NCBI RefSeq assembly: GCF_026210795.1
Contig: NC_089432.1
Coordinates: 4,092,001 to 4,156,000 of the forward strand
Length of the DNA: 64,000 nt
Source: Rhizophagus irregularis
Lineage: Eukaryota
Direction of reading: 5' to 3'
Shown: positions 5,336 through 50,542 of the stretch, one piece after another
How the letters are laid out: each line of letters starts with the position of its first letter
Numbering within the stretch: position 1 is the first letter of the stretch
Program-made: the position numbers and the translations under genes
Notes under the pieces: model-generated
The model's database searches: none
Seen by the model: only the letters and a program-made list of their open reading frames with translations
What the model was told of the DNA's origin: nothing

Positions 5336-6213
5336 TTTTCTTTTTTATTAAAGGTAAATTATTGAACAAAGAGAGTGACTTGTTCATATATATAAAATAA
5401 ATTAAATCGCATAATATGAAATTAGTATGTATTTTTCTTTTTATTCTAATCCCTCCGCCATGATTATCTTTAAGAATAATATGACTTCTTTATAATTGTT
5501 TTGCTTTGTATTTATCTTCCTTTAAAAAATCACCTATATAAACAATAAATCAGAAAAAAATAAATGGATAATTATTTAAAAGAATATTATCAAACTACTA
5601 ATTAACTAACATGTGTCACATTATGGAAATTCTCATTTAATTAGATATGGAACTTCAAGAATTAAATTCTGTAAAAAAAAAAGCAATTGAATGATTAAAA
5701 ATAAATAAATTAGAAATGAAATGTTGCACTATTAAAATTCAGTAATAATCATTGCATTTATTATTAATAATAAATGTATAAATGTAGTTGTAATTAAGGT
5801 TAAAAACCTTAATTAATTAATTTATTTATTCTTTTTTTTTTGTTTGATGAGAAAGTTAGAAAAAGCTGAAATAATTTTATCATTTTGTATAAAATATCAA
5901 AAACCGACTAGCAACTTTTATTTTTAGCTTTAAGATTTATGTTTTACTTATTTATCATCTTTTTACAAGTGTATTTTTACATTTCAATGTTTGTTAATTT
6001 AAAAAGAAAGATATTATGACATACACAAAAATATAAAATAAATTTATTATATATAAAAATGATTATATAAAATAGATAAAATTATAACAATCTATTTATT
6101 TATATTTCTAAAGCAATATATTTATAACCTTGTAAAACAAATACTGTAATTCTGTAAATAAATGATTTAAGGTTTTAACAATTTAATAGTAATTAAAGGA
6201 AAATTATTATAAA

Positions 6214-6572
6214 TTATTTATTTTTTTTAAGGTTCTTTAATTTAATCTGTGCATCTTGATCTCCTTGTTTAGCAGATTTTTCATACCAATAAATTGCTTT
6301 ACCTATATCTTTTGTAATTCCATCTCCTTCTTCATACATTAAAGCAAGATTAAATTGTGCAGTATCATCTCCTAAAATTGCAGCATTTTGATATAATTCA
6401 AATGCTTTTTGCTTATTAATTTTAGTTCCAATACCATTATTATAACAATATCCTAACATCATTATTCCTCCTGAATATCCTCCTTCAGCTGATTGCTTAA
6501 ACAATTTAAAAGCTATATTATAATCTTTTTCAATACCAATTTCATTTCTATAACAATTACCAAGATTATATA
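6214..6572 (-). pseudogene. 3' half of a Sel1-repeat gene interrupted by the 8.9 kb transposon
   Basis: Reads [12 protein letters not shown]...LKKNK*. It joins in frame to 15486-16157 once the element and one TA are removed. Confidence 0.92.
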
Positions 6573-7294
6573 CTTTACTGAAACCTGTAATTTTTCAGCT
6601 TTGAAGCTACCTAGCTGCTACTTTTCTTCTTTTCCTAAGCTGCGGCTAGGCAACTGTGATTCAATGATTCACTTAAATTTTCTAATATCTTTTCGTTAAG
6701 TAGCTTATAAACAGAAGTTAGTTTTATTTAAGTGGCCTATAAGAAGTTGTTTGAACAATCGTAATATTATTTAATTAATGAAATTAATTTATCAAATAAA
6801 AGTCATAATAAGGCCGCCTACAAGAAACTTTAGAATTTACTAATCGATAATGAATGCCGATCATTTTTATTATGATTGCATCATCCGGACCTACGGATCT
6901 CTGGAAATTTTGCTATTAATGCCGGGTCCGTCTGATCGACAAATCAGGGACGTGACTTATTTTTTGACTTGATAATGACGTAATGACTCTAATAATGAGC
7001 GAGCTAATTTAATTTATTCTAATTATTAAAAAAAATGTAGTTATGTCTCAATCACAATTATATCAACTTGCCATTTTTAGTCGACAAAGATTTTTTTTTG
7101 ATTATTAAAAAAAAAAAAATTTTCTTTGACATCATTCTATCTGTTTTTTTCTAAAATTTCAATAATTTTTTTTTGTTAAAAAAATCCTTCTTTAGCTCCT
7201 CTGATTGATATAATAGTTTTTTTTTTGGTTAAAAAAAAAAATCCTTTTTCTTCTTTTAGTCCTCTAAATTTTAATCGTTCATTTTCAAGCAATT

Positions 7295-9020
7295 ATGTCG
7301 CAGAAAGATAAATCTGACGTAAATAATATCACTGCGCCTCAACAACAACCACTACCATACAATCCATACATGTTACCGCTCAAGGTGCCGTGACTCCAAT
7401 TATATCTAACCCACTAGTCCCACCTACTATGTCTCCAACATCTAATGCAGCTTCAAAATCTACTGAAACTGGTAATAGTATTTTATTTTATATAAACCCA
7501 CTTATGAATATTAACTCAAATTTAATAAATGATGAAGAGTTACAACGGAAAGATATGAATAACGAAACAGCTTATGATCAATGTGATGATCCACAAGACG
7601 ATAACCAAATTGTTGATACTGCTGAGTTACAGTGTAATTTTGTTTATTCATAATATTTAACGTTTATGGTAAGTATAAATTGTATAAATTATTAATCTAT
7701 ACTATTTTTTTAGCGGTAGATGAGCTTTTAGATCAACTCGATTTGCATGTTATTAGAAATTGTGAAGTGCGTAATAAAATTGCTCGACGATTCAATCTTG
7801 TAAATCTTGTATTAAAGGTAAAGTTAATTATCCATTAATGCAATTTGCTCATCAGGCTTGCAGATCATGCTTGCTAATGATTTCATATAGATTAATACTT
7901 TAAACACACTTGGTAAGCGAACGCATGTGAACATTGATAACGATATTGTGCAACCAAGAAAAAAAAGTGTTTCAACCAAAATAGTAAACAAATACAGATC
8001 ACCTGTGTAAGTACACTATTAATTATAACAATTTTTTTTTTCTTTTTCTTGTGATTAATTGATTTTTATTTATTTTATTATACTATAGCAATGAATATGA
8101 AAGATCTTTATCATCAACTGGTTATCAACTTCCGTCTCTTTTTTTTGATAAAGATGGAGGATTCCCTTTTTCAACTCGTCCAATGTCTAACCCACCAGAA
8201 AATTTACAAAATCCCGAAGATAAAAGCTGGCTAGACCAATATATGATTGATAAAGTATTAAGAGATAATAAACTTGTAAGTTTTGATTTAAAAATAATAA
8301 ATTACTAATTATATTATAGTAATAACTGAAAACAATTTTTGCCTTTTTCTTAGAATAATGAATGGTTATACAACAATCTTCGGGATGAATTACATTCATT
8401 ATTTTTACGAACACGTAACTTAGATGTTTCAAACAAATTGTTAAAGGATTTTGTAATGACTATGTATACCAGTCTTAATGCCATGCAAATAAGAGACTCA
8501 CTCGCAGATCGTTTACGAGGTTGTAATAATGATTGGCGATGCAAACTTTGGAAAAAAATTATAGCTTTATATAATAGTTTACGTCAAAAATATGACAAAG
8601 AGTAAGTATAATATTGCAGGAAATTTTTTTTTTTTTTAATTTTAATTAGAATTTAATTTTTGACTTTTTGTTTTCAGTGATCAACTTTCGGCAATGGACC
8701 TTTCAGATTTTTTGGTTAACGAAAATATTCAACAAGTTTTTAAGCAATGGACTGGAAATATCAGTCCAGATGCAATTAAAAATGCATCTGATGCATTAAA
8801 AAATGTAATATTGATAGGATTCAGATCACTAGAAAGTGCTGATTCACAGGAGAAGGCACATGACATATTTTTTAATCTTCATACTGATTTATATACGGTA
8901 AATCTTGATTTTCCTACTGATTATAATATTGGAACTTCAATTGATCTTTCACCGTACAATTTTGTATCTCAAAGCAGAAAAAGCAGCCCAAAAAAAATTA
9001 AAGATAACCATGAAAAATAA
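7295..9020 (+). CDS. Transposon accessory gene A (7 exons, unknown function; apparent 1-nt frameshift near 7378)
   Basis: Phase-compatible GT-AG introns join exons at approx 7295-7471, 7538-7633, 7714-7817, 7891-8006, 8089-8274, 8354-8601 and 8678-9020. The C-terminal part contains DELHSLFLRTRN, similar to gene B. Confidence 0.7.
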
Positions 9021-9294
9021 TAGTTGTTAGCTAGAAAATAGCCTATATTATAAATAATTATAAATAATTGCGATAATGTATTAAAATATGCGATAAATCG
9101 ATAATGTATTAAAATAATTGCTAATTTGCTTATATTGATATTGATAATCTTCATAAATTGATATTGATAATCTGCATAAATTGATAATAAATAATAATTG
9201 AAAATCAATTGAAAATCATTTTTAATCTGATAGTTTATCCCGTTAATCATAAACTTTTATTAAATTAAAAACTTTCGTTTTATTTTTCTGTAAA

Positions 9295-11139
9295 ATGCCA
9301 CCTAAGATAAATAAAAGGCAAACCAAACCTGTATCAATTGAAGTAAAACGAGGTAACTATAACGAAAATACAGTTAATAACAATGTAAATAATTTAAATA
9401 AAATACTATATTAATAATTTTTATTATTAAAGGACGCCCAAAAGGTAGCAAGAAAAAAACTGGAAATAATACTATATTAAATAAATCTAAATCCAGAGCA
9501 AATAAACGGCAAGTTGGTAATAATAAAATTACACCACCAAGAAACAAAACATCTTCAGTTGCTCGTAAAAATAAGAATCTTGATGAAGATGAAGACTACA
9601 GTCAAGAAAACGAAGAAAATATTAATGAAGAGGAATTATTGGAAAATTTGTCTGATATGAATTATGAAGAAGACCATAATAGTGAAGATAGTTTAGAAAG
9701 TAATATTTGTGAAAGCAATATTTGCTAATATGATTATCATATACATTAATTAATATTCATTTTTTAACGACTTTAAAGTTGTATCTCCAGAAAGAGGTTC
9801 GGAAGTGAGATCTAGACATGAAGCTATACCTCCATCACGAACTCCAGAAAGAAGCTCGGAAGTGAGATCTAGACATGAAGCTATACCTCCATCACGAACT
9901 CCAGAAAGAAGCTCGGAAGTGAGATCTAGACATGAAGCTATACCTCCATCACGAACTCCAGAAAGAAGCTCGGAAGTGAGATCTAAACATGTACCTCCAT
10001 CACGAACTCCAGAAAGAGGTTCGGAAGTGAGATCTAGACATGAAGCTATACCTCCATCACGAACTCCAGAAAGAAGCTCGGAAGTGAGATCTAGATATGA
10101 AGCTATACCTCCATCACGAACTCCAGAAAGAAGCTCGGAAGTGAGATCTAGACATGTACCTCCATCACGAACTCCAGAAAGAAGTTCGGTAGTGAGATCT
10201 AGACCTCTATCACAAACAGAAAGAAGTTCAACACCTTCATCAAGTGATGCGTCTTTACCAGCATCACTTTCAGAAATGTCAAACTTACTCGATATCTGCA
10301 ATTGGCTAGTCAAGCGACCACAAATTTTAGAACTCGCCAACCAAATGGTAGCAGCTAATAATACATCATCAAGTGCTAATACAATTGCAAATTACGTTCC
10401 TGGAATCAGTAATAATTCGCCTGTACTCACAGAAACAGGAGAGGTAAGATTATTTTATACTAATGACTAATTATAATTATATAATAAAATATTAATAAAT
10501 ACTGTCTGTATGACAAATTTAACAAATTTAGAATAAATCACGTTTATGGGATGAAGAAAGCAAATGCTTATTTTTGCGGATTCGTAATCCTTCATCTTCT
10601 GTCTTAGATAGCTTCATATTAGCTGTATTTGGATATCAGCCTTGTAGTGAAAAGGCAAAGGCAGTTTTTCAAGAAACGCGTAAAAGATTAGGGGATTTTA
10701 GAAATAAATTTAATGCTACATTACGTGGACTTGCCAGTGAGTTAAAGGAATCAAGACGCATGTATGTTTTGTGATTTGTTAATATTAATAAACATGCAAA
10801 TAAATAGTATACACTATTTTAAATTTTATTTCATTTTATTTTAAAAGAGAAAACATTAATACTATTACAATGCCTTCACAAAATATCATTGAGGAATTTA
10901 TTAGTGAAGAAGTCGTGATTCGAAAGGTATTAGCAAGATATTTTGTAACTACAAATGAAACTGAGCTTAGACGTAATGGATCATTAGATAGATTAGTAAG
11001 ATTTGTTCGGGAAGCATTTAAAATTCATTATAAAGATAGCAACAAGGAAAAAATTAAAGACCTTGATGTAATGACTAAGGATTTGGTTATTCCATCACGA
11101 AGTGGATATAATTTGGCGAGTTCTTTAACGGTACATTAA
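9295..11139 (+). CDS. Transposon accessory gene B: AT-hook, acidic tract, R/S/P tandem repeats, conserved helical C-terminal domain
   Basis: Exons approx 9295-9351, 9433-9699, 9779-10443, 10532-10761 and 10849-11139 splice in frame. Splicing creates KRGRPKGSKKK, which matches the AT-hook consensus. Confidence 0.8.
9786..10203 (+). repeat. Coding tandem repeat, 57-bp unit (54-bp variants), about 7 copies
   Basis: Unit encodes RSRHEAIPPSRTPERSSEV; copies are nearly identical. Confidence 0.95.
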
Positions 11140-11536
11140 TATGAAATACTTTTGTTATTTTTATTCTAATTATTAATCAATTTTTTTTTTAGATACTTTA
11201 AACCTCCTATATATTGATGATAAAGCTTTAATGCGAATATTTTTATGAAAATTTATTTTATATATTTAATTATTAATTTCAAAAAAGTACATATTTGTAA
11301 TAGCAAAACATAAGCGTGTTTAATCTATTGTTTATATTTGTATTGTTTGTTATTGAAATATACTTTAGCTTAACAGTATACTTTGAAGTTTATTTTTAAG
11401 TTAAAAATAATATAGTACTAGCTTAATTTAATAAACTATACTTCGAAAGTTTATTTTTAAGTCAAAAATAATAGTATAAAAATAAAACTTAGTCATTTTT
11501 TTCAACTAAAGTTTTCTTTCGCATTCAATATCCAAT

Positions 11537-14500
11537 ATGCTACGTAAAACATTTCGCTACAAACATGCAAATAAACAGTTAACACTTCACAAACGTTATT
11601 CTTACATATCATCTTTACGAGATTATGATATTAAAAATGCTATTAAAGCGTATTCAAATAATCCAGTTATCGAAGAACCATTACTAAATTATTCTCAAAT
11701 AACAAATGAAACTACTAATGAATTTAGTTTAATGCAAAATTATGATGAAATCAATCATATTGCCGAAGAAATACCAACTGATAATGAATACAATACACAA
11801 TACGATAGTTCTGAAAAAGAAAGAGATATAACTGATAATGAATATGATACTGATTCAGAATCACAAAATGATAATTCTGAAAAAGAAAGACATATAACTG
11901 ATAATGAATATGATACTGATTCAGAATCACAAAATAATAGTTCTGAAAAAGAAAGGCATATAATTGATAATGCTCTAGATCCTTCTAGATTGCCAAATAA
12001 TACAAGCGATTTTTCACCATATTTTGACAACATTACCACAGCTTTGTTATTTTGTTGGATACAGAAACATAATATATGTAAGCATATTATTATATTATTA
12101 TCCAATTTGATCAATATTAGGAAAGTTTTTTAACTATTGCTTGTAAGCCATACATTTATAAACTTTTTGTTTGATATTTTAGCTACACATGCGTATGATG
12201 ACCTTGTAAGTATCATCCATCATCCAAAATTCAATAGCAATGATGTAGTGACAAACATCCGATATTTTCGTCAATGGAGACAACGGCTACCTCTTTTGCC
12301 AATAGCAGCAAATACAGTTTCGATTTCATCTAAAAAAACGCCATCGACTTCTTCTGAATCTAAAATGACATACTATTTATTGATTAATGATATTATTTGG
12401 CATGTATTAAACAATCCAGCTATAATGAATCACATGTATTTTGGTCCAGGAATCGAAGCAAATGTAAAGTCAGAATTTTGGCATGGGACTTTATGGGCCG
12501 AATCTCCACTTTTTGGTCAAGAAAAGATTGTTATTTCACAAGGTAATAATAATATCTATTTTTTAGGATCATATTTTTTTAAAAACTAAGTTCTTCACTT
12601 TATAGTAACATATTATTGCGGAGAATTTATTTATTATTTGTCCAATGGTGGACATAAGCTGCTTGGTTTTCTTAGATCGATACAAGTTAATGAAGAAAAC
12701 CAATATGTATTGAAAATACAAAAACTTTTGTATTATGAAGATATACCTGGTATATTTAAAGGGCATCTTAGACAGCAACGATCCAAATCTGGTGAAGTAT
12801 GGATGCTTGATGATAACTTTGTTTTCATTTGTCCTTCACAAGTTTATAATAAAGCAACAGTCAAATTGCCACATTTACATCAAGTTCTGTCTCACAGTGA
12901 TCTTTATGTATTAGAAATAATTTATAAACATAATAATCATTGGCGGGTTAGAGATATTCAACTATCTTACCAACATCCTGCTCACTCCATTATAATTAAT
13001 AACCCACCTGTAGATTCAATGCCAGTTTATAAATTATTCTTAGATCTTTACTATGATGATTTCGGTACATTCAGAAATGTGTATCACTCATTGGGAGGAG
13101 TTTATGTGCAATTTGGCAATATGCCAGCACATATGCGAAAACGACTCAAAAATCATTTCGTAATTGGATTTGTGCCATTCGGCGGTAATTTTGATGAGTT
13201 TATTCAGCCATTCATTAATGAGTTAAAGGAATTTGAGAAGGGAAAAATAATGAATATACAAGGGCGAGACGTCTGGGTAGTTGCAGGTTTAGGAGTAGTT
13301 ACTGCAGACTTGCCTCAAGGGAATGATTTATCAGGTGTTTTAAGACATGGGGCAACAAAGGGGTGTCGTACTTGCACTGTAGAAAAATACTCATATACTG
13401 ATAATTCTACAGATATTATCAGACTATCACGTTATAAACAATGTACTGATTTAGATTTTTCCTTAATTGCAGCTGAAAGTTCAATAACAAGAAAAAAACA
13501 AATTGGTTCAGAATTCGGATTAAGAATAAAGCAAAGCATTTTAGATGAATTGCAAAGAGAAAGGCACTTGCAAACCCCGCAAGATATATATCATGCCACA
13601 GCAGGAAAAATTAAGCGCCTTCTTAGATTGACATGTGAATTATTTTCACATGAGGGGGAAAATGCATTCATCAGAACCTGGAAAGCTTTAGAAAAACCAA
13701 AGAAATGGGCTCATTTACCAAATCCCATAAGTCATCATGAAAGTTTCATGATGTCAGATTATCTTCGCTTGGCGATGATAATGCCATTTATCCTTCACCG
13801 TTTTCTAAAGGTTATACATATTAAAAGTGATAATCTGGCTTTAATTCAGCAACGAATTAACGTTCAGCGAAATGATTTGGTACCAAAATATATTGTAAAA
13901 TGTTGGGTTTGTGTTGCTCAAACCATGAAAATTGCTTTTGATAGACATTTTACTAATGAAAAATATATTGAATTGCAAAGATGTTTAGACGCCGAAATGA
14001 ATATTTTAACACAAGTAGTTCATAATATTTATTATGGTTCTTCATTAATTTGCCTTATATTGATTTACATATTATATATATTTAGGTTTTTGAAGAATTC
14101 GTCAACCTCCCAAATCTTCATCTTAATTTTCATTTTCTTTTACATGCCCGTACTTATGCCACTTTATCTAATACTCAAGTGGGTATAAAAGAAATGATAC
14201 ATAGGATTTTCAAATCAATGGTGCTAAAAACTAACCGAAAAACAGTGGAGCTTGATTTGATTAAACGTTATAACACTATCTTTGCAATACGGCATCTTGT
14301 TGATGGAGGAACCGATAGAAGATTTTCACGATCTAGCAATGGCTTCACTTCATTGCGAAAAAGTGACAAAAGCTTATTTACTAATTGGTATGTTACAGAG
14401 ATAATTCATTTTCTCAAGATGATTATGAAAATGAAACTGGAGGTAATAAAGTTGCAATTATTTTACTTTAATATAACTTCAATATAATTCAAAATTCGTA

Positions 14501-15064
14501 ATTATAACCCTTTATAAAGTTCAATTATCAATAGGATGTTTTTACGATATTAAACTAAAACAAAGAATATCTTCAAAAAATACTGGAAATTTTGTAACAT
14601 TTTCGTTACAAGATGCCAATTTTAAAGCTGAACTATATGAATCTTATAAAGATCTTAAACTTAATTCAGCACTCATAAATTCTTCTTTAACTTGGTATCA
14701 ACGGGTTTCCTACATGACGGAAGATAATTATGGAAATACTGAAAAAGTCTGTTTACAACTTGGAGATATTTTAACAATACAAGAAGAGGAGTGCGAATCT
14801 TATGCCAAGCTTCAATCGATATTTCAACATAAAGGCAATGATGATAAGTTCTATGTCTTTATTGTTGTTGCTTGGTTTGAATATGTTAACCAAAATCATA
14901 CAATTTTAGAATGTCCGATTTATAGGCTTAATGATCGGCAATGGAGAAGAGTATTCCCGATTACTGTTATTGATAAAGCTCATAAAGCACACTTTATACG
15001 CAGATCAGTTGACACAGATGATGGTTATTGGTACAAAAATCAATTTTATTTCACGGCTATTTGA
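11537..15064 (+). CDS. Spliced DDE transposase (CMC/Plavaka-like) with possible C-terminal BAH-like domain; apparent 1-nt frameshift near 14400
   Basis: Motifs LYYDDFG, VTADLPQG, GCRTC, QDIYH and PNLH...KEMIHRIFK match the D / D / CxxC / DxxH / E layout of CACTA-group transposases. Five exons approx 11537-12077, 12183-12542, 12607-14013, 14086-14442 and 14519-15064. A 66-bp acidic repeat lies at ~11810-11965. Confidence 0.82.
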
Positions 15065-15485
15065 TTGTTTTATTTATTACCTTTGTACTATTACAATGAA
15101 GCTGCTATTAGGTAGCTTAGTAGTTTAAATCAATATCAATACAATATAATATTTAGGTTACCTAATTTTATTGAATTTTTACCTATAAACTGCTTAGTAG
15201 CAACTTAAGAACAACCTACACATAAATATTTAAATTACCATTAAGTATTCTATAAATCGCTTATTTTAAATTATTAAACTACCTTCAAGTAACGTATAGG
15301 CTACCAATTATTAAATATCTAAGCTACCTATAAATCTTTATAGTGTTTACATAAATGATGCTTATCAAAATTGTCTAGGTTACTTTAAAGGTAACCTAGT
15401 TGTGATGTTTTATGTCTGCTAATAGGTGGCAGTTAGGTAATCTTTGTGTGGCCTAACTAAATCAAATTTTGGGGTTTCAGTAAAG

Positions 15486-16157
15486 TATTGCCATCAGGCT
15501 ACCATTATTTGCAGCTATTTCATACCAATAAAAAGCCTTTTTTAAATCCTTTTCAACACCTATTCCTTTTTCATAACAATAACCAATGCTTACTTGTCCA
15601 GGTGTAAAATTTTTATCAACTGCTTTTTCATAATATTCAATAGCTAACTTATCATTTTTCATAGTTCCTTTTCCATAAAAATAACACTCACCAATAAAAT
15701 ATTGTGCCAAAATATGATTTTTTTCTGATGCATTAATAAACAAATTAAATGCATTTTCATCATTTTTATTTATTTCAATTCCATAATAATCAAAATATCC
15801 AAGAATAAAAATAGAATTTGAACTATTTTTATTATCTAATAACCAATTATAAACTTCATGTGAATTTAAATCATAATTATTAAAATATTCAATAACTTGT
15901 TGTTTCACTGAATTTATTTCAAGTCCTTTATTTATTAATTTAAAAATAAAATCATGTATTTCATCAACTATAATGTTAAAATCTTCAATTGCAAAATTTT
16001 CTTGTTTATTTAATCTTGCTATAGGATCAATTTCTTTAATATTCATTTTATCAAAATAATGAATAAGTTGAGATAAATCTCCTTGTAATTCTGAATTATT
16101 AGTACTTAAAGAAGTATCATTAAATTCTTGTTCATTTGTATACTCGGTATCTTGCAT
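15486..16157 (-). pseudogene. 5' half of the transposon-interrupted kinase-less Sel1 gene
   Basis: MQDTEYTNEQEF...NNGSLMAI, highly similar to the 40408-41439 gene, and cut exactly at the TIR. Confidence 0.92.
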
Positions 16158-18233
16158 TTTGATATTATTGAGTGTTATCAAACGTATTGAATAATGATAA
16201 GTTAACAGTAAAGTTAGAAAAAAATGAAAAGTAAAAATTATTAAAGTTTATTGTGTATACCTATTTTATATTGTTTTTCTCGATGATAGTCGTACAAGCG
16301 TACATCGTGATTTAGTATTACCTGTTACCAAACAAAAAAGTCAGTTGATGCTCACCTTGGTACCACAGTACACAGTAAATAATGACGTCATCAAGAATTT
16401 TTTTAGCACCCAAGTTTTGTGGGCGTGGATTTTTGTGTTACAGGGGTGACAAATAAATTTTTGTCACTAAAAAATTCTGTCCCTCAGATACTTAATGTTT
16501 TTGAAGCAAGGGAATATGTACTGATCTAAAGCAGTACCCATACTATATGTTTTACCACTACCAGTTTGACTAAAAAAGTAGGGGGAAGGGTTGAATAATA
16601 AAATAATAAAATGGTTAATAAATTGTTTCATTTATCATGATTTTTTTTCTATGAAAAAGTTGTATATATTCTAATAATCATAGATGACATAGAACCGAAA
16701 ATAATTATGTGACTTATAATACTTTTAATTGAAAATAATAATACAAATTATAGTATTTTTCAATATACCTTCAGGACTAGGGAGTTTATCTTCGTTATCT
16801 TCAAATGGAAGTTGACATCTAAAGAGTTAAAAATAATAAAAAAATTGATTTCAAGTCTAACAAACTTAACTATTTCGTATGTAAGACTAAAGTTAAAAAA
16901 AAATCATAATTTTTGTTTTTTTGATAATCTCTTAACAGATTTATTTTTATGGAAAAAAATTTTCTTAAATCTTGCAAAAAAATAATAAATTTTGAAAAAT
17001 TTTATTCATCAACGGAAGATAAATTTTAATTTGTTAACCATTAAAATTTAACCAATCAGTTTGCACAAAAAATAAACGTGACTTATATATATGTGGCTAT
17101 GTATTTGTGGCTGGTAGCAAATAGGAAATAGGAAAAGTTTAAATCCGGCGACCGAAGGGAGCCCCTATACCAAATATTAATAAAGACTTTAAGATGCAAT
17201 TAAAGGATCATTTATTAAAGCAAATGAATAATATAATTTGTATTATTATTAATGATACAATTATTAAAGTATAAGAAAACGTAACGTCTGTCTAATATTA
17301 CTATTATAACTCAATAGTACAAGTTTTCGCATAATGTCCTATCCCATGGCATTTTTTTACAAGTTGCTTTTCGTTTAGATGATTTACTTTCTTGATCTTC
17401 ATAAGTATCTCGCAATGTTGCACCTGTTATAATTAGTTTTATCTGATAAAACAGTACTACGCACATTTTTCTCAACAGCGCGCGCTCATGGAAATTATCA
17501 TCTTACCGTTCAAACTCATCTTGTTCATGTTCAATAAATTCTGAAATGATAGCTACATGTTTAGTATTTACGTTACTTAATGTTATCATTAACATTTTGA
17601 AGAACTCATACCTGGATTATCAAAAGAAAAAAATCCCTTTCCGCCAAGTCCAACTTTCCAGAAGTGTCAAAGGAAAAAAAGTGTTGGTTATTCATTAGAG
17701 AAATGTCAAAGGAAGGAATGGTTTGGTTATTTATTAGAATTAAAGAATGAAAGAAGTGAAATAGAAGCGAAAAGAAAAGAAAATGATCTAGATGATAAAC
17801 TATTAAAAACTATCAAATAAACTATTTGCTGAAGTGGCCATACTCAAAAATCAGGCCGCTAAAAAAAACTAAGTCTCTCAGATACTTAATGTTTTTGAAC
17901 TCGTGGCTGCACGTGATCAGGTGACAGTTAAATGTCACTTGTTCCTTATATGGTGAAGATCGACACAAACCGCGCCCACAAAACCGGAGTGCAATAAATT
18001 TTAACGATGACGTTTTATATGTAAATTACTGCGGTACTGCTGCGGTACTGCGGTACCATGGCGACTGATTGACTTTTTTGTTTGGTAATACTAAAAATCA
18101 CGCTGTACGTTGTGCGACTATTTGGAGAAAAAAAATTTATATAATAGGCATACACAATTAAACTTAAAAAAAAAAATGAAAAGTAAAACTTTCTGTTAGC
18201 TTATTATTATTCAATACGTTCGATAATATCAAA

Positions 18234-20394: not shown

Positions 20395-21465
20395 GTTTTT
20401 TAATAAACTATTCTCATTCAAATTTTAAAATTTTAGATCATTAGTTTACAGTATTTATTTTTATAAAAATTTACAAAATAGTAAACACACCGCCCTAAAA
20501 TAATGATAGTTAAAATTTTTACCTATTTTATTATATATACTTTATTTTATAATTAAACATACTCGTAAGAAGACATTTTCGATCTAACATACCTATTAAT
20601 AATGGAAGCACATTGAGACTTATCGCGAACCTTCAATTTTTCAATGGATTTTCTTTTTATTAACTACAAAAAAGAAATTTATTAATCAGAATTTTTTTAT
20701 TTATAATAATAATTTAAATACTTTATTTATTATTCCATCTATTATACAATGTATAGTCTTCTTTTTTTTCAATAGGATCCATTTGATAGTTTTTTTTTGA
20801 TAACTGAAGGTCCCATATGAAAAAATGAACACTACATTTCTTTAAAACCCCTATAAGTATTATTTTTACTAAGACCTTTTTAACTAAAATTTTTAATGAT
20901 CGTATCTTTTTTTCAAAATTAGAATTTAAAAAATCATCATAACTCTAAATTAATGCAACTGTAACTAATTATAGTGAGATATTGAGAATTTTCTTTTACA
21001 AAAAGAAGAATAAAGACATGAATATTTGAATTTATAAAAACACTTTTTAGAGAAAATAAATTAAAATAGGAAACGATTTCCAATTTTATTTGAATTTCTT
21101 TGGGTCAACTTTTTTATTATGGGCCGGTGCAAAAAGATTCGTACCTCAACAAAATGCCAATAAAAAAATTTTTTATTATATAAATGTTTATTTATTTATT
21201 TAATTTGAATTGATATATGTTTGGGAAATATAAAAATATAAGTGTAAGATTAAATTGTGTATTATCAATTAAAATTACTATAACCACTAAATTTTTATTG
21301 ATTAATTGTGCATTTTTTATATTATATTCAAAGTATTCTTTAACATATTTAAATGCCATTATCTAAAATTTAATTAAAACTTATGAAATTTTTTTTTTTA
21401 AACGAATTTAATAATGTATCATGAATGGATAAAGATTTTGAATGAGAACTTAAACTTACAATTTT

Positions 21466-24400
21466 CGCAATTATTTTAAAAAAATGGAATGCGATAAATT
21501 AATGACAAGAATTAATATGATTATAAAGAAAAGAGCAGGGCTAGCTAGAACAACTCCCAATTTTATAATTTACGAAAAAGATATCTTAGGAGTCAAATAT
21601 ATTTATGACCTACAGATGGAAATGTTGTGCAAGAATTTGTTATATCAAGCAAACGGAAATAACAAATTAAAAATTTTATTTAAAATTAAAATGATCCAAG
21701 AACAGAAAAATTTTTGGACTTCGAGATGTCCTGGTGAATTAGAAATAACGAATTATAGGAAAAATAATTGGATCATATCGGCATTAAAGGCGCTAAATAA
21801 CGAAAAAATAAAAATTTGCAATCATGAAACTAAAGATTTTAAAGAAAATCACAGAATACAAGGAGGAAAGATAGATTTAATAGAATTACTTGAAGAGAAA
21901 GACTTCGTGACAAGTGCACAATCAAGAAAATCGAAAAATATAATGTTTCTAGAAGACATCCTGGAAGCGGATGGTATTACGTTATTAAAATGGAAGCATT
22001 TATGTAAGGAACAAGTACTGAACACGAAAGGTAAAACCCCAAAATGGTTCAAAAATCTAGAACACAAATTAATAGCAGATGAGAGCGGACAAGTAAGAAG
22101 AATAAAAAATGAATTTATAGGACAATCACAAAAAGAAAACATTCACGTAAATTTATTTGATGAAAACGAAAAACAAGATAAAAGTAGCATTATAACTTGG
22201 AACGACGAAGGTGAATACCCGATATTTAGTATAGATAAAAAAAGATCGCAGAGCAAAAAATATAAAAGAATAGGTATACATTTAATATTAGTCGGAGACC
22301 ATTACGACCTAAACAATTCACCTCGATTAGAAGAATGCCAAGAATGCTACAGAAATATTAGTAAAAAAAAGGGGAACAACGAATGTTTAATATATATAGA
22401 AAATGAAATCAGCAGAAAAATGGACAGAAGAAAAGAAGAAGACGATATCAAACCTTATGAAACTTTAAATAACACTAGGGAAACGGGAACCGTTGTAAGT
22501 CCGGAGCAATAAGTCGTTTCGTCACCCAAAAGCTGCCTAAAATCTGCAACTAAAGAAACAAACAAAATATTAGCAGACGTTACATTTTGTTAAAAATAAA
22601 AAAAAAGACAAAGAAAAAATATTTAAACACATACCGTAATGCATCTATGGAGAACCGGATTTCCAACCTTACCGAAATTCATGTCCATAGATATTTGAAG
22701 AAACTGTCTAAAAAAAAGTAATAAAACAAAATGTTACTAGTAAAAGTTTTGTTATTTTGTTAAAACAAATAACAAAGTAAAAAAAATATCTTACCTAAAT
22801 CTAACGCGTCCAGATGACTCTAAAAAAAGTGAAGATGAAATATTAGCAAACATTTCGCTAAAAGAATTGATTTAAGTAAAAAGAATACTTCACTTACCAA
22901 AATATATGTCCAAGAGACTCAAAGAATCACCTACAAAAGAAAAAAAAGAAAAGAACTATTAGTAACATTTCATTAAAAGAAAAATAAAAAAAAAAGTCTG
23001 AAAGGGCCAAGTTTACACCAAAATTTATTCATAAAAAACCATTTTTCCTTGGCGCTGCTGGTAACTTTCAGTATTTTGTTTTAAACATCAACCATCTAAA
23101 AAAAGAGAAAAATTGAATGTTAACAATGCTTTGTTAGAATAAATAAATTCGAAAAAATACATTTGCAGATGTTCTCACCAAGTTTCTATGTATCCAAAGG
23201 GCTAAGAAACAATGCCTAAAAAAGAAAAAAATGTTAAAAACCGGTCATCAAGATAAAAAAATTAAAGAAAAAAAAATGAAAACCTGAAATATCACGCTCA
23301 AGGAAACTAAACACCAGAAAAAGTGAGAGAAGTAAGGGGAAGGGTAAGACGAAGGAAATAGGAAAGTACTTTTTTTTTTCATGTGACTTATTTGTTTGAT
23401 TATTGATCTTATCAGATGTGATACGCGGAGTAACGCGACGCGACAAAATTTTTTCAAATACGGGGTCTTTTTTTTTTATATAATGAACATGATACATTTT
23501 GCTTTATCAAGTAATCAAGGACATTGCATACAATGTTACTAAAAATAAAAAGTATAAAGGGAAATAAGCAGGGGCATTATGTTTCAAAAAGGAAATTGTG
23601 GTAATGACGTAGGTGGAAGGAAGGAAAAATTACATGGGTTAAACCGGTACTACAAATTTATCTAGTTCCGTACAATAAATAGTCCTTCGCTACGCTCCGG
23701 ACAATAATAAGAAAAAATGAATGGTTAAGATCTTATACAAAAGAAGATAAAAAAGATGAATTATTTAATAAAAAAATAGAATTAATAGATAAGATAATAA
23801 AAACGAATGAAGGAAATTTTACGGAGCTAATTAAAAATAGTATTTTTGAAGAAAACGAATCAAATTTGGGAACAAAACGAAGATTTTGCCTCTTAATCAA
23901 CATAAACAAAAAGAAATGGGATATAAATGATAAAGGTAAACGAATTTATCGTTATAACGTAATTTGGAAAATCTTCGAATTAGAAACTAAAAGAAATTCA
24001 AATGAAGAATTGATATTTTTAGCGAATCATGAATGTAATAATGAAAACGAATTTAAACTTATTTTATGAAGTATAATCGTGGGAATTTTAATAATTAGTG
24101 AGAATAGCGAGTTAATTTTGGGAATTAATGAGAAAGTTAATAGATTAATATTCGAATTTATTAACAATTTTAGTAATAGGAAAAAGATAGATAGTGATTT
24201 CTATCTTGAACTTTTATTTTTAGAGAATTTTTTAGAAACGAATAATATTGAACTAATCGAAAAAAATGAAAAAACATATAGAATTATAAAAGAAAAAAGA
24301 AAAGAGATGCAAGAAATGCTAAAAAACAAGAACGTAGTTAATACGATAAAATATAATTTTGAGTTAATAGAGGAAGGATTGATAAATAACGAATACAATT

Positions 24401-25505
24401 TAATTTGGAATAATAGATTAATTACAGGAGGATTTCGATCATGGAGAAAAGCAGTAACGAATGCAACGTGGAAAAATGAAATTTTAAATAGTGAAAAATT
24501 AGAAGATTTATTCATGTACAATTATAGAAAAGAATTTGATTGGATTACAAGCTTAGAATTCATCAGTAATAGAATTGAATTTTCACAAAGACAATGTGGT
24601 GCTAAAGATACGATCGACTGCTCATACAGAATTAAAAATTTGCTCAAAGAACAACCACGTATAAAACTTTATATAGAAGAAATACTAATAAAATAGATAC
24701 AGATAAATGTATAAGATGTGGGAAAATAGAACTAGAAGATTGGGAACATATATGGATATGTGAAGATAATGAATTTTCAATCGATGAAATTATACGAGAA
24801 TCACCATATAAATTTGAGAAAATCCTAACCGACTCCAATTAAAGTGAAGAATTAGATATATTAAGAAACTATAATTGTGAATTTATTAATATAATTGAAA
24901 GCCCATCAAATATTCTATTAGGAAAAAACAGAAAATGGGAATTGATCAGAGGAATATATAATAATAAATTCAATGATTTATCAAAAGAGAAGAAAGTCAA
25001 AGATCTGATAAAAAGACTCTGGATTTTTACATACGAAGAAATAAAGAATTGTATATGGATTCTGCGATGCAACAAAATAAAAAGGTTGGAAGAAAAAGCC
25101 CAAATAAAAAAAGTAGATTTAAGAAGGAAAAGAGATGAAAAAGAAGATATAATAGAAGAAGAACACGATAAACAATCGGAAAAAATAAAAAAACAAAAAA
25201 CAAATAAAAAATTGGATAAAAAAGAAAAAACAAAGAAAAGTAAACAAATTAGTCTAGTAACGTTAGATAAAATGAAAAGATCAATTACAGATGGTAATAA
25301 TATAGCTAGATCTTGGGATACACCTATTAAGATAGCGAATAGTTAAATTTAGACTTAGTATAGATAGATTTAGTTATAGTTCGATAAATACTTAGTTATA
25401 GGGTTTGAAATTTTTTCAAGCTCTAGGTGTTTAATTTTAATTATGTAATTTTTATGATTAAATAATTAATAAAATGCATTACTATTTAAAAAAAAAAAAA
25501 AAAAA
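21466..25505 (+). mobile_element. 5'-truncated non-LTR retrotransposon (LINE), degenerate ORF2 C-terminal part
   Basis: 15-bp TSD TAAACTTACAATTTT (21451-21465 and 25506-25520), AATAAA at 25468 and an 18-nt poly(A). Zinc knuckle CIRCGKIELEDWEHIWIC at ~24707. Broken ORFs at 21484, 23866, 24079 and 24942. Confidence 0.9.
22475..23704 (-). mobile_element. Non-autonomous Helitron/Helentron-like element inserted in the LINE
   Basis: On the minus strand it starts TTGTCCGGAGC and ends with GCTCCGGAC, a short hairpin AACGG-TTC-CCGTT and CTAG. It sits between A and T with no TSD, and its removal restores the LINE frame (ETLNN-IIRKNEW). Confidence 0.8.
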
Positions 25506-29300: not shown

Positions 29301-29594
29301 TAATGTATGAAGAAGGAGATGGAATTGCAAAAGATATAGATAAAGCAATTTATTGGTATGAAAAATCTGCCAAACAAGGATATGCGTCAGCAAAAAATAA
29401 TTTAAGTGACCTTCAGAAAAAAATCAATAATTTATAGTAATTTCTCTTTAATTATTAAATTAAAAGGTTAAAACATTTATTTAGTGTTTATTTTTCCTTT
29501 GCTTTAAACATAAAATAAATAAATTGTTATAATTTTATTATATATTTTTTATAATCATTTTTATATAATTTTCTTTTATGTTTAAACATAATTT
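26340..29594 (+). repeat. Left arm of a ~3.2 kb inverted duplication
   Basis: Reverse complement of 32743-35899, apart from scattered substitutions and small indels in the non-coding parts. Confidence 0.9.
28481..29437 (+). CDS. Kinase-less Sel1-like repeat protein (318 aa)
   Basis: Intact intronless ORF; differs from 32874-33830 at one residue (D/N). Confidence 0.92.
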   Translation: MQEDSSQLIQNFDKINIKEIDPMVILSKQENFDFNIIVDEINDLIYKLNSKGIEWESEKQVIEYFYNHNINSQEFYNWLLNNQNSSNSIFILGYFNYYGILTNKNKEKAFNLFINKLEKNHILAQHFIGHCYFYGNGTMKNDKLAFEYYEKVANKNLTYGQLSLGYCYRNEIGVEKDSKKAFYLYEKAANNGNIIAIYNLGILYEDGIGTKKDNNKAFKLFKQSAEVGYLGGIMMLGYCYDLGIGTKIDKQKAFELYQNAANLGHNIAQNNLALMYEEGDGIAKDIDKAIYWYEKSAKQGYASAKNNLSDLQKKINNL

Positions 29595-30392
29595 CATTGC
29601 TGAAATCCGTGATTTTATGACATCACTTTCTCTATATTATCACGTTGTTATTTTAGTAACGTAACAATCATTGTACGTTAACACGAAATTGCAATACATT
29701 TACAATACTGTTTTTGCGTTGTTTGATATATTGTGACTATATCATAAATATGGCTTTTTTTATATTAAATTTTTTAAGTATTATTTTTTTCACTTTCATA
29801 ATATTGATGTTGAAAATGTGACTACAATGCTTATAATTGCATAGTAACGAACTAACGATGATGATACTAGTATATTATACTGAAATAATCAATTGGTTTT
29901 ATGCCACAGATATTTATACTTAAGTATCAGCTAATGTAAGACAAAAAAATTTAACAATAATTTCTTAAAATATTTCTGAATGCCATTTATTTTTTTATTA
30001 TTTATATTCATTCTATAGACACTAGTAATGGATATACATATCAAAATCAAATTTATTTTATGTCAAGCAGGAAAAAAAAAATCAAATTTCGGGGAAAAGC
30101 CCCTAATTTATATAAAATTATGTATCACATGATTAACGTGACAATTTTAACAGATCAGCCACTTTTTTTTAAAAACTTTAACAAACCTTTTTCCTTTCTC
30201 ACAGTCTCACCCTTTGCCTTCCCCATCTTTTTCTCTTTCTCTCGTTTCACTCTCTCAAATAAAAATCTTTAGTGGAACTTTTAGCAACATGTTGATATTT
30301 TTCTTTATTAGACAAAAATCATTGCATTATGCAATGAAAATTAAGAGTTCATAATGATTTTTTTTTAAAAAAAATAAGTATATTATAACTTA

Positions 30393-45763: not shown

Positions 45764-48700
45764 CTTTGCAGAAACTTGATGATTTGCGACCTAGCCATCA
45801 CAAGATCGATCTAAATTCACATCGATCACGTGGCGGCATGTTATCTTTGCGAAATTTTTACGATTCGTAAAAATTTTGTCAACTTATCGTCAATAAATAG
45901 TTTCGTAATAACTTCGAATTGTAATAAAAGTATTAATAAATTAGTGGTTAAAGTAGGAGATTAGGCGAAAAAATTAATTAAAGACGTTTTATCAAATTAT
46001 TAGATAATATTCAACGAAGCTTATTATTTGATATAATAAATCAAATTTTATTTAATTATTGTAATAATTGTAACAGCAATTTTCATTGTAATAATACATT
46101 GTAATAGAAATGACTAATAAAAACGCAAATAATAAAAATATATATTTTTGTAATAAAACAATCATTGTAAAATGCAGTATTTAATAAAATTCACTATATT
46201 TTAATAAAAATGTTATATCTAACCGAATTTTTATAATTGTAAATTATTAGCGAAGTTTCAGCCATTTCTAAATGAAACTGCTAAATTTTTTGTCATTACG
46301 TCCAAAGTTTTCAGTCTTTCTGGATCTCTGGTATTATAATTAAAAATTACAGCTTTTTTAACGAGATTATTTAAATAAATCATTGAATCTTCTCTTCTTA
46401 AATCATCAATTTTCACAGCATTCAACCAGCGTCATAATACAATTATTATTTTTCTTCATCAATAAAATCATCAATAACTTCTTTCTGCATTAAAGTTGTT
46501 TCAAGAATACCTTGTCACAAAATATTATTATTATATTTCGGTTAAATAATCATATCTGTCAATTGAAAGCTGAAATGAAAAAGAAAAGAAATAATTACTT
46601 GTTTCTTTTTTCTTTGAACGAATTGACCAATTTTTTTATCCCGTCAAGAAACTAGTTTCTGAAATCTCCAAATTACCTAAACCTGATCCTTAATAACCAT
46701 TCTAAACCTTCAACTGAGTTAAGATTGCACTTGATTTATTTGTCGTATCAACTCCTCAAGAGCATGTTTTGGAGGATTTCTGACACACAAGAAGAAACAT
46801 TTGATTTTTCTAAAAAATTGCAACTGGTCATTGACTGTAAGTATCAAAATAATAGTGTTAGTGGCTTTTAGTGGCTTTTAGTGGCTTTTTTAAGCAATTA
46901 AAACAAAAATCAAATAATTCTTACTTTGTCTTCTTGCAATGGTGATTGCAATTGTAATGCTGTTGGATTTGCTAAATTTGATGATGTGAACTGTTGCCCA
47001 TTTGCGAAAGATGTTTGCATTGATGAATATATAGCATTATTAGCAAATTGAAGAACATTTGGATTCGCACATAGCCAAGTGGTGAGCTGAAAGATCGTAT
47101 CTATGTCATTAAAACATGGTGGAAGTGTAGGAGAAGCAGATGTATTACAAACATAAAGAAGCTGATGTATTTAAATCTCTTGATTCTGGACGCGAATGAG
47201 CTGATACACTATCAAGTTAATCTGTATTTCTATGAACTTCACGTAAAGGAGTTGATGTATCCAAATTCCTAGATCTTGAAACTTCACGTAAAGAAATTGA
47301 GAGATCCGAATTCCTAGATTTTGAACGTAAAAGAGCCAATGAATTTTCAAGATCGTCTGTATTTCTAGTTGATATATCTGAATTCCTAGATCTTGGAACT
47401 TCATGTAAAGGAGTTGAAAGATCTGAATTTCTAGACATGAAGGAGCCAATGAATTTTCAAGATCATCTGTATTCCTATTAATTTCTTGTAAAGATTCTGG
47501 ACATGAAGCTGATGTACTATCAAATTCATCCATATTTTTATGAATATCACGTAAAGAAGCTGATGTATTCAAAGCCCTAGATTCTGGACGTGGAGCTGAT
47601 GCACTATCAAGATCATCTAAAAGATAGAAGTACACATTGTTTATTTGGAGATAACAAATTAAAAGGACAAGAAAATGATTATTCCATTAAATCTTTACCA
47701 TAATCACTATCTTCTAAAATTTCATTTAAAAGATGTGGATTTTTTTTAGTAAGAGATGTGTCACTTTTTTAACGTCCATGTCCACAGCTACGTCCACAGT
47801 TAGCAGTTTGAAATTGTTCATCTTGAGATGTATTATTTCGTCCACGTTCACGTTTGGTTTTGGATTTTTTGTGAGAAGATTCATCTTTTCTAGTACTGCT
47901 ACATCTATGAGTTTGAGGCATTTTTAATTTGAATATTTATGTAAATAAAATATTTATTTTATTTTATTTGTCAAATATCTCTTGATTAAAAATTAAATAA
48001 TATTTTTTTTTGCTAATCATGTACTTAAAAATTGATCTTAAATAGTATTTTTTTTTTTCGCTAATCATATACAAATTAACTAATTATGTCAGTATGTATT
48101 TTTAGTTAATTTAGACTATATTTAGTTAGTTTAATTCAATACGTAGTACTTTTTATACTTTTTTAATTTAGTATAAAAATTAATCAAATTATGTCAGTAC
48201 GTATTTTATTTAAATTAGTCTATATTTAGTTAGTTTAATTCAATATACAATATTTTTTTCGTATGCTTTTTTTTAATTTAATATAAAAAGTTAGTTAATT
48301 TCTACTGACTATTTAATTAATTTATACTATAATAAGCTGGTTTAATCAATGTACAGCACTTATTTTCGTATACTTTTTCAATTAATATAAAAGCATTAGT
48401 CAAATAAAGTTTGATTATTTTCTTTTATTATGATATTATGTAATTGATTTAAATAAAATATTACAAGCATCATACGAAATAAATTGATTTTTCACACACT
48501 TCTTTTACTTGTTAAAATGTTTCGAAATCGTTATACTTCATTTAATCCACATCATACTTATATTAGATACTGTCATAGCAAAATTAAAAGGTATCTTTAC
48601 AAATATCAAATGAAGAAAATGAAAGAAATGCATCTGAAGATACAATACAGATATACGTTCATTTTTCTGAAAAATTTTTTATAGATGTAGTATTAGAACT

Positions 48701-50542
48701 GGCTCACCCTTTAGAACAATTATTTTGAACACTTGGGCTCCAGTATAGATCAGTATTTTGGCGCACTGCTTTCATCCCACCTTCCCATTCAGCACTAGTA
48801 AGAAGATAATGAATGGAATAACCCTTTTTAGCTGTTCTTTTTATTTTCCAACAGGACGCTTATATTTTGTGGATGTCTTAGACTCCACTCGCTCCAGTAT
48901 GATAGCTTCTAGTATAGACATGATTTCTATTTTTCAGTTCCTGGTATACAAATGACGTAGGAGAATTATTTTAGATACTTGCAATTGTATGGGGATATTT
49001 TATCATTGAAATTATTAATATTTTACTTTTATTACTTTTATTATCATTGATTAGTTTGAATAGTGGCTCCTTGAAAGCTCAAGTTGAACAAAGCCAAGTT
49101 GAACTGGCAGGCTGATGGGACTGATGGAGTCATGGCAATTTATTATTAAAAAAAAAAAGATATCAGATTTTTTTGTGTACTTCAATGATCAGACTAAATT
49201 ATTACTGATACATTTTTTTTTAAAAAAAGACATTAAAAAAAAAGATAATGTTTTTTTAGACCAAGTTTTTTACATTTTCTATATATTCTATATACTCGGT
49301 TTTATTTTTAACTATTCTTGTGTTCATTTTATTTTTAGATTTAGAGAACTATGGAAAGTAAAATGGTCAGAAGAGAGTGTTGTAATTTTTACAGAAAAAT
49401 ATTAACTATCTTTTTCTTTACTATTTAGGACATGAATACCAAGTTTTTGGACTTGTGAACTTTGGATTTAAGACATAAAAAGTATGTTGGTTAGAATTTA
49501 GAAGTAGGAGAGTATAATGATTAATTTATTTGTGTGCATTTTTTTTTTTATTTTTTAGGGCGCATATTTATTGGAATACCAGTTTTGGATGTCTGAAGTT
49601 CCAATTTCTGAACATGGAAGGTGGGTTGGTTGAAATTAGAGAAATTTAGGAAACGTTAGTAGAATGTTACTAATGTTTCTTTCTTATTTTATAGGTACCG
49701 GCTCCTTAGGTAAAGGGAATGGAAGGTTATATTATTATTGAAAGAAAAGATATTATTATCTTTTCTTTTATTTTAGGTGAGCACAGCCAACTGGGGAGCT
49801 AGAGAGGGATTAATTCTTGAAATGGTACTTACGTTTTTTAATTTCTTTTATGAAAATTACAAAAATTAGATCGAAATATAATATTAGTTTCATCGACTCC
49901 ATTGACCCCATTGACCCCTATCGGCTTATTTTTTCAAGCCGAACTGAACTGAATGACTTCGGAGCATCAAGTCAAACCAAATTGACCCCATCAGCACGGT
50001 TCAGTGCGGCTTGGACTTAACTTAATAGTGTACATTTGTAACAGTCATGATCTTAGAAACGATATGTACATTCAAAATATGTATTATTATAATATTAGAT
50101 ATTAATTATTTAAAGTTTCGAAAATAGTACTTTAATACAATTATATTTAATTTTTACAATTTTCATAATATCAATTTATTAAATTTTTAAAATTTTGATA
50201 ATAAATTGTTAATATCCATAATATTAATTTATTTAATTTCGATAATACTAATTTACTAATTTATTAAAATTTTAATAATATTAATTTAACTATAATTTAT
50301 AATTTCGATAATGTAAATTTAAAATTTCGATAATATAAATTTAAAATTTTTTATTAATATATTTATGGCTTCGAAATGAAATCGATTAAAATAAACTATC
50401 GATCATCTTAATATGCAGTAACTGCATCTTGAAGAATTTTAATTAAGTCGAAACTGAGTTTTGACCATAACTTTGCTTTAAATTTAATATGAACATGCGA
50501 TTTGGTCAAGATTTGGTTTCGGTTTAAAAAATTTCTGCAAAG
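45764..50542 (-). mobile_element. 4.8 kb non-autonomous relative of the 8.9 kb transposon
   Basis: 11-bp TIR CTTTGCAGAAA / TTTCTGCAAAG and TA duplication; empty site visible at ~6087-6112. It contains a homolog of accessory gene B and no visible transposase. Confidence 0.85.
46231..47921 (-). pseudogene. Decayed homolog of accessory gene B
   Basis: TIFQLTTWLCANPNVLQFANN aligns to NLLDICNWLVKRPQILELANQ, KCFFLCVRNP to KCLFLRIRNP, FGDFRN to LGDFRN, and LDVMTKNLAVSFRNG*NFA to LDVMTKDLVIPSRSGYNLA. It has R/S-rich repeats, the same intron phases, and several stops and frameshifts. Confidence 0.82.

What the first reader, a model, noticed from the sequence alone, without database searches (positions are those of the whole stretch)
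6573..15485. Three-gene TA-targeting CMC-like transposon: DDE transposase plus two paralogous uncharacterised accessory genes
Seen: exact ends (13-bp TIR, TA duplication, empty site in a paralog) enclose three co-oriented spliced genes. Genes A and B share a C-terminal region (DELHSLFLRTRN vs EESKCLFLRIRN) flanked in both by a phase-0 then a phase-2 intron, so they appear to be old paralogs retained in one element. Established: CACTA elements carry a second DNA-binding protein (TnpA), and plant VANDAL elements carry anti-silencing VANC proteins. Inference: A and B form a dedicated accessory module (end-binding, targeting or anti-silencing) of a transposon family with non-canonical CTTT ends. 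I do not recognise the domain as a named family.
Basis: partly seen in the sequence, partly recalled or inferred. Interest (0 to 1): 0.85.

Follow-up and report, generated by a model that had tools for sequence, protein, structure and literature searches.

The report
Fungal transposon with Prospero-like accessory genes
A cut-and-paste jumping gene of arbuscular mycorrhizal fungi carries, beside its transposase, two related helper genes; the predicted structure of one of them matches the DNA-binding domain of Prospero/Prox1, a developmental regulator reported only from bilaterian animals, so the helpers likely bind the element's own ends and may hint at a transposon origin for that animal domain.

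The parts
6571..6572 (.). left copy of the TA target-site duplication
   Evidence: empty-site match in 7 paralogous places
6573..6585 (+). left 13-bp TIR (CTTTACTGAAACC)
   Evidence: family-wide end motif
6586..7022 (.). left subterminal region with copies of a TAGGTAGC-like motif (candidate binding sites, inferred)
7295..9020 (+). gene A, 7 exons; frame from the first ATG (7295) breaks at codon 33; from ATG 7429 it gives 378 aa with the whole shared domain
   Evidence: 376 of 378 identical to P0115; 4 introns spliced in run X24
8354..8970 (+). shared A/B domain in gene A (exons 8354-8601 and 8678 onward), homologous to B's Prospero-like domain; not folded itself
9295..11139 (+). gene B, 5 exons, intact 503 aa: basic N-terminus, acidic tract, 19-aa repeats (about 9785-10204), conserved helical hairpin, C-terminal domain
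   Evidence: 503 of 503 aligned residues identical to P0105
10532..11130 (+). domain of B predicted to have the Homeo-Prospero fold (exon 10532-10761 = homeodomain-like half; exon 10848 onward = helical-bundle half)
11537..15064 (+). DDE transposase gene, 5 exons; D..D..CxxC..HxxxH..E core; BAH-like domains; one-base frameshift near 14398 cuts off the C-terminal domain in this copy
15065..15472 (.). right subterminal region with clustered TAGGTAGC/TAGGTTAC-like motifs
15473..15485 (-). right 13-bp TIR
15486..15487 (.). right copy of the TA duplication; the element splits a minus-strand Sel1-repeat gene (about 6214-16247)
45764..50542 (.). second, non-autonomous member of the same lineage in the window: same end motif, TA on both sides, broken B-type gene (46261-46877, minus strand), transposase almost wholly deleted
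   Evidence: empty site at 6017-6168 (93%) and 40248-40372 (90%)

Best explanation
This is a cut-and-paste DNA transposon of arbuscular mycorrhizal fungi whose two accessory proteins share a domain predicted (for B) to have the Homeo-Prospero fold and likely act as sequence-specific DNA-binding helpers on the element's own ends, in the way plant TnpA does. Shown: exact ends, 2-bp duplication, gene structures, A-B paralogy, tight linkage and co-divergence of B-type genes with the transposase, splicing of A. Predicted: RAG1-like catalytic core with BAH domains (model of a 54-59% identical relative) and the homeodomain-plus-bundle fold of B. Inferred: the transposase reads the conserved CTTT(A/G)C(A/T)GAAA tip and cuts and pastes with a 2-bp, TA-biased duplication; B, the core helper, binds family-specific subterminal repeats, helping to pair the ends and/or keeping the element's promoters active against CG methylation; A is an ancient duplicate with altered specificity kept in some families; BAH domains may read chromatin at the target or donor site. 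This copy looks recently disabled, while other isolates hold about 99% identical copies with an open frame at that place.
Confidence: 0.62

Rival explanations
1. A and B are anti-silencing or transcription factors only (VANC-like): they bind internal or promoter motifs and keep the element unmethylated and transcribed, but take no part in the transposition reaction.
For: R. irregularis TEs carry CG methylation and expressed copies have less (PMC8647823, passages). The one long locus without B, L073, has a TET/JBP-like ORF in the same position (PF12851, E 1.9e-6, below the gathering score). Arabidopsis TnpA itself causes end hypomethylation. A was transcribed without the transposase in run X24.
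Against: Near-universal retention of B across a deep transposase tree fits a required cofactor better than an optional counter-defence gene; motif clusters lie at both ends, including the 3' end that has no promoter in this layout.
Confidence: 0.2
2. The match to Prospero is a convergent helical arrangement (a helix-turn-helix plus bundle); A and B are accessory proteins of another kind, for example a target-choice or transposase-scaffold factor.
Against: The hit stands 5 Z units above all other 48,160 chains, covers both halves of the Prospero domain and the whole B domain, and the runners-up are homeodomains on the N-terminal half; both search programs single out Prospero.
Confidence: 0.13
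3. A (and perhaps B) are captured host transcription-factor genes riding as cargo, without a role in the element's life cycle.
For: A-type genes were not found in any of 80 transposase loci; their context is known only here and from fused gene models (P0114, P0117); A alone was expressed.
Against: B is linked to, co-diverges with and is conserved beside the transposase; fused gene models place an A-type gene only 37% identical to ours directly before a B-type gene (P0114) and a B-type gene directly before a transposase (P0150).
Confidence: 0.05

Closest known systems
Plavaka (PlavakaA/B; CMCT clade; PMC12730594, and reported as prevalent in R. irregularis in PMC11075540)
   Same: C(2)C and H(3-4)H motifs, 2-bp TSD, similar size (6-9 kb), weak PF18759 hit in 2 of 34 homologs (best E 1.2e-5), partial in-register likeness of the first 16 bases (4 of 6 Plavaka ends reached by at most 83 of 2000 shuffles)
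   Different: ends are CTTT..AAAG, not TGT..ACA or CATCA..TGATG; 32 of 34 homologs have no Plavaka hit; no Prospero-like accessory gene is mentioned in the passages read
ESTA (EnSpm-like with TA TSDs, rust fungi; PMC12730594) and CNEST (Cryptococcus; PMC12810828)
   Same: CMC-type transposase found RAG1-like (ESTA), 2-bp TA duplication
   Different: their ends begin CAC (all ESTA sequences shown; CNEST CACGG); TA is only a bias here; different accessory genes
Plant En/Spm (CACTA) with TnpD and TnpA
   Same: separate DNA-binding accessory gene, clustered family-specific subterminal motifs, CMC transposase
   Different: no CACTA end, no 3-bp TSD, no PF02992/PF03017/PF03004 hit in 34 transposases or the accessory sets; TnpA is described as two tandem three-helix HTH units and restricted to flowering plants, with the DNA-binding domain typically fused to the transposase in fungi, whereas here it is a separate gene with a homeodomain-plus-bundle fold
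Prospero/Prox1 Homeo-Prospero domain (PF05044; PDB 1MIJ, 1XPX)
   Same: predicted fold over the whole domain, with the long third helix joining a helical bundle; domain sits at the C-terminus behind a long low-complexity region
   Different: 17% identity, no profile hit; encoded by a multi-family fungal transposon rather than a single-copy bilaterian gene; published Prospero sites are absent from the ends
PIF/Harbinger two-gene elements (transposase plus Myb/SANT protein); PAIRED domain from Tc1-like transposases
   Same: two-component logic; some members here also carry a Myb/SANT gene; PAIRED is the precedent for a homeobox-class domain taken from a transposon (PMC4901127, passages)
   Different: unrelated transposase; 3-bp TSD in canonical Harbinger

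Membership tests
CMCT clade | [quoted passage not shown] | tested here: met
   D475/476, D559, C578/C581, H806/H810, E830 conserved in 34 homologs; catalytic roles assigned by analogy
CMCT clade | RAG1/Transib-like fold | tested here: met
   model of relative P0004 matches RAG1, E 1.6e-7, prob 1.0
CMCT clade | TIRs and a 2-5 bp TSD | tested here: met
   13-bp TIR, 2-bp TSD shown by empty sites for two elements
CMCT clade | 5'-CA..TG-3' termini (stated as 'in most cases') | tested here: not met
   21 of 24 ends begin CTTT, 3 of 24 begin CATT
En/Spm (CACTA) proper | CACTA/CACTG ends and 3-bp TSD | tested here: not met
En/Spm (CACTA) proper | Transposase_21 (PF02992) match | tested here: not met
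   0 of 34 at E up to 0.05
En/Spm (CACTA) proper | TnpA-type tandem HTH accessory protein | tested here: inconclusive
   no TnpA Pfam hit; no TnpA model was available to compare folds
Plavaka | PF18759 match | tested here: inconclusive
   2 of 34 homologs, best E 1.2e-5; none for the window's exons
Plavaka | TGT..ACA (A) or CATCA..TGATG (B) ends | tested here: not met
   only partial likeness further in
Plavaka | placement inside the Plavaka clade of a transposase tree | not testable with these tools
   reference transposases could not be fetched; supplement cells are cut at 400 characters
ESTA / CNEST | TA TSD | tested here: inconclusive
   TA for both window elements; 10 of 20 other ends, background 0.10
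ESTA / CNEST | CAC..GTG ends | tested here: not met
PROS-class homeodomain (Homeo-Prospero domain) | atypical homeodomain whose third helix runs into a four-helix bundle | tested here: met
PROS-class homeodomain (Homeo-Prospero domain) | sequence-profile match to PF05044 or to Prospero chains | tested here: not met
   (HMMER filters drop most matches above E about 0.1)
PROS-class homeodomain (Homeo-Prospero domain) | sequence-specific DNA binding | not testable with these tools
   needs an experiment
VANC-type anti-silencing factor | trans-demethylation of cognate copies | not testable with these tools
   no methylome or expression test available

The most novel reading that the evidence does not exclude
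The A/B domain is a true homolog of the Homeo-Prospero domain, so a domain held to be bilaterian-specific exists as a diverse family of transposon-borne DNA-binding proteins in Glomeromycotina; Prospero/Prox1 then arose by domestication of such a CMCT-transposon accessory gene (as PAIRED did from a Tc1-like transposase), and these elements define a new CMCT lineage with CTTT ends and a Prospero-like TnpA equivalent.
Probability: 0.3. Interest if true: 0.9.

Novelty: new variant of a known kind. Interest (0 to 1): 0.72.

Why it matters
It gives a fold and a testable job to a family of at least 185 unnamed proteins (50% clusters) and defines an abundant transposon lineage of the main plant-symbiotic fungi by its ends and gene set. 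It also shows a fungal CMCT element with a separately encoded DNA-binding helper, a layout described as typical of plants. If the Prospero link holds, it offers the first non-animal relative I could find of the Homeo-Prospero domain and makes the origin of the Prospero/Prox1 regulators of neural and lymphatic development directly testable.

Tried and rejected
No whole genome was held, so copy number and the share of A/B genes inside elements genome-wide were not measured. Pfam on 16 window ORFs named only the flanking Sel1 repeats. PDB sequence searches with the transposase or the accessory alignments gave nothing significant. ESM Atlas gave no usable hit for A or B. The viral structure library gave no match. 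Scans of viral contigs and prokaryote genomes found no relative; a context scan for A-type genes could not be run. The second structural look at other Prospero/Prox1 chains (pdb_via) never ran, and PF05044 could not be run directly on the loci. A complex prediction of a near-cognate B with a transposase core gave no answer (score 0.00, alignments not used, partner fold uncertain); it is not evidence either way. No RNA holder was listed by the run search. Published Prospero sites are not enriched in the ends. CpG ratios do not separate the element from its flanks. In three loci with both ends (L028, L038, L054) the flanking dinucleotides differ left and right; these short-read contigs may join flanks of different copies, so I did not use them as TSD evidence. 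One seed (B exon 2) was in the wrong frame, and the intron coordinates were off; replace them. Rejected: assembly artefact (independent assemblies hold the element); strict TA targeting; membership of CACTA proper, ESTA or CNEST by their ends. Our earlier findings held nothing.

Full report
The element. The 13 bases at 6573-6585 are the exact reverse complement of 15473-15485 and both are flanked by TA. Joining the flanks with a single TA gives a sequence found across the join at 7 paralogous places in the window (77-93% identical), so the 8,913 bases are an insertion with a 2-bp duplication. It splits a minus-strand Sel1-repeat gene of a tandem family. The main transposase exon is 100% identical to a Rhizophagus irregularis protein, and every one of the 103 longer homologs listed carries a Glomeromycotina name. 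A second insertion with the same end motif lies at 45764-50542, also with TA on both sides and an empty site at two paralogous places; it keeps a broken B-type gene and only about 19 codons of the transposase start.

Gene structure. All 14 introns are GT..AG, and the last two introns of A and of B are phase 0 then phase 2. B is intact (503 aa). A is intact from ATG 7429 (378 aa, 376 identical to P0115), but its frame from the first ATG ends at codon 33 because about 33 codons present in P0115 are missing. The transposase stops at codon 894 through a one-base frameshift near 14398, after the catalytic core. One assembly matches the window exactly there, while two other samples hold copies about 99% identical with an open frame at that place (X15 against X17 and X19; X17 has its own one-base loss at 13654). 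In four RNA-labelled runs, A was covered and four of its introns were spliced in one run (X24); B and the transposase had almost no reads in all four.

Transposase. Pfam does not name the window's exons; among 34 homologs 2 hit Plavaka (best E 1.2e-5) and 2 hit BAH weakly. Conserved residues give D..D..CxxC..HxxxH..E, the CMCT signature described in PMC12730594 (passages). A model of the relative P0004 (pLDDT 72) matches RAG1 (E 1.6e-7) and BAH domains. It is a CMCT-clade enzyme; its exact branch could not be placed because reference transposases were not available.

Ends and target. In 80 transposase loci from metagenomes (the best 80 of 138 confirmed) the motif CTTT(A/G)C(A/T)GAAA occurs 17 times facing inward and never outward in 187 kb of flank, spread over the whole transposase tree. 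TA precedes 8 of these 17, and 10 of 20 hand-picked ends outside the window, against a background of 0.10; AA, TT, AT, TC, CA and TG make up the rest. So the ends are a family trait and TA is a preference. ESTA and CNEST also duplicate TA but begin CAC; PlavakaA makes variable 2-bp duplications with TGT ends. The first 16 bases resemble some Plavaka ends more than shuffles do, but only modestly.

A and B are paralogs. The window's two proteins are only marginally alike. A mixed profile found 185 representatives among 1.84 billion proteins (150 listed). Sorted into 30 A-type and 120 B-type, the two profiles align over 160 columns at 98.2% probability, E 4.5e-14 (the sets were gathered with a mixed profile, which favours this). 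A check free of that bias: a profile of two A-type proteins alone hit the B-type exon in 9 of the 21 B-bearing loci that had been found through the transposase (E 5e-5 to 0.03). The 13 A-type among 60 near-full domains form one clade (support 1.0). Of 20 members looked up, the 10 with an organism name are all Glomeromycotina (Rhizophagus, Gigaspora, Dentiscutata, Scutellospora, Cetraspora).

B belongs to the element. A B-type gene lies beside the transposase in 17 of 18 loci with at least 2.5 kb upstream (15 clear; L049 and L050 weak upstream; two pairs are near-duplicates) and in 20 of 31 with at least 1.5 kb, in either orientation, mostly with the same mid-domain intron gap. It is under purifying selection in 6 of 6 pairs and co-diverges with the transposase (9 of 13 nearest neighbours agree; Mantel rho 0.34). 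No A-type gene was found in the 80 loci; L028, L031, L038 and L054 have both ends and only one such gene; L047 has two. Fused gene models put a distant A-type gene before a B-type gene (P0114) and a B-type gene before a transposase (P0150). L003, L043 and L015 carry a Myb/SANT gene upstream of the transposase, and L073 has a TET/JBP-like ORF instead of B.

How it likely works. A TAGGTAGC-like motif clusters at both ends of this element (9 copies against 0.11 expected, pattern defined afterwards; 2 of 300 shuffles reach the shared-word count), and other motifs do so in the second element and in L028, but not in L038 or L031. With a homeodomain-like helper that co-diverges with the transposase, this is the layout of plant En/Spm, where TnpA binds clustered family-specific motifs, is needed for transposition and lowers methylation at the ends (10.64898/2026.08.24.746577, passages and section 6; that text has no occurrence of 'prospero' or 'homeo' and calls the DNA-binding domain typically fused to the transposase in fungi). 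R. irregularis methylates its TEs at CG (PMC8647823, passages). I therefore infer that B, and A where present, bind the subterminal repeats to help transposition and self-activation. Binding itself is untested.

What is known. CMC-EnSpm and Plavaka are reported as common in R. irregularis (PMC11075540, PMC8647823, PMC5751038; passages), so the element probably sits in such libraries under one of those labels; a figure legend in PMC12810828 lists an R. irregularis sequence in trees I could not see. The supplement of PMC12730594 has no Rhizophagus hit, but its long cells are cut; supplements of the bioRxiv papers were closed and may bear on the TnpA fold comparison. Verdict: real element, new variant of a known kind, with a surprising and testable structural link of its accessory genes to Prospero.

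Noticed in passing
window 45764-50542: Second, non-autonomous element of the same lineage with TA duplication shown by an empty site, a broken B-type gene in divergent orientation and TCGA-rich subterminal repeats; inserted in the same tandem gene array.
   Followed up: yes
L073:348-1703: TET/JBP dioxygenase-like ORF (PF12851, E 1.9e-6, below gathering score) upstream of a transposase of this lineage, in the only long locus without a B-type gene; TET-bearing elements were described only from Basidiomycota and Ascomycota in PMC12730594. Ends not found, host unknown.
   Followed up: partly
L043:3492-3869, L003:8096-8524, L015:152-583: Myb/SANT-like (PF13837) gene upstream of the transposase in some families (between B and the transposase in L003 and L043); also fused to the transposase in 4 of 103 gene models.
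   Followed up: partly
L003:5961-7189: hAT-type transposase fragments (DUF659, E 3.6e-20) nested between B and the transposase.
   Followed up: no
window 27184-29457 and 32854-35136: Large, nearly perfect inverted duplication (arms 98-100% complementary) around a 3.4-kb spacer; a CATTGCTGAAATCCGTGA end-like motif lies at 29595, with no accessory or transposase hit nearby.
   Followed up: no
window 2390-58217: Tandem array of at least seven Sel1-repeat (and kinase-like) paralogs in both orientations, the host of both insertions.
   Followed up: partly
window 21454-25343: Long ORFs (352, 208 and 167 aa) that read like parts of a LINE-type reverse transcriptase and a CCHC-knuckle protein (label from recall, not tested).
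   Followed up: no
window 9785-10204: Seven or eight in-frame 57-bp repeats in gene B whose number varies between isolates (P0105 has one more); similar low-complexity repeat tracts occur in other B-type genes (L031).
   Followed up: partly
B residues 4-30 of P0104 (about window 10275-10355): A short conserved helical hairpin (C-x-W-L...P-x-I-L) separate from the Prospero-like domain in most B-type proteins; possible dimerisation or partner-binding motif.
   Followed up: partly
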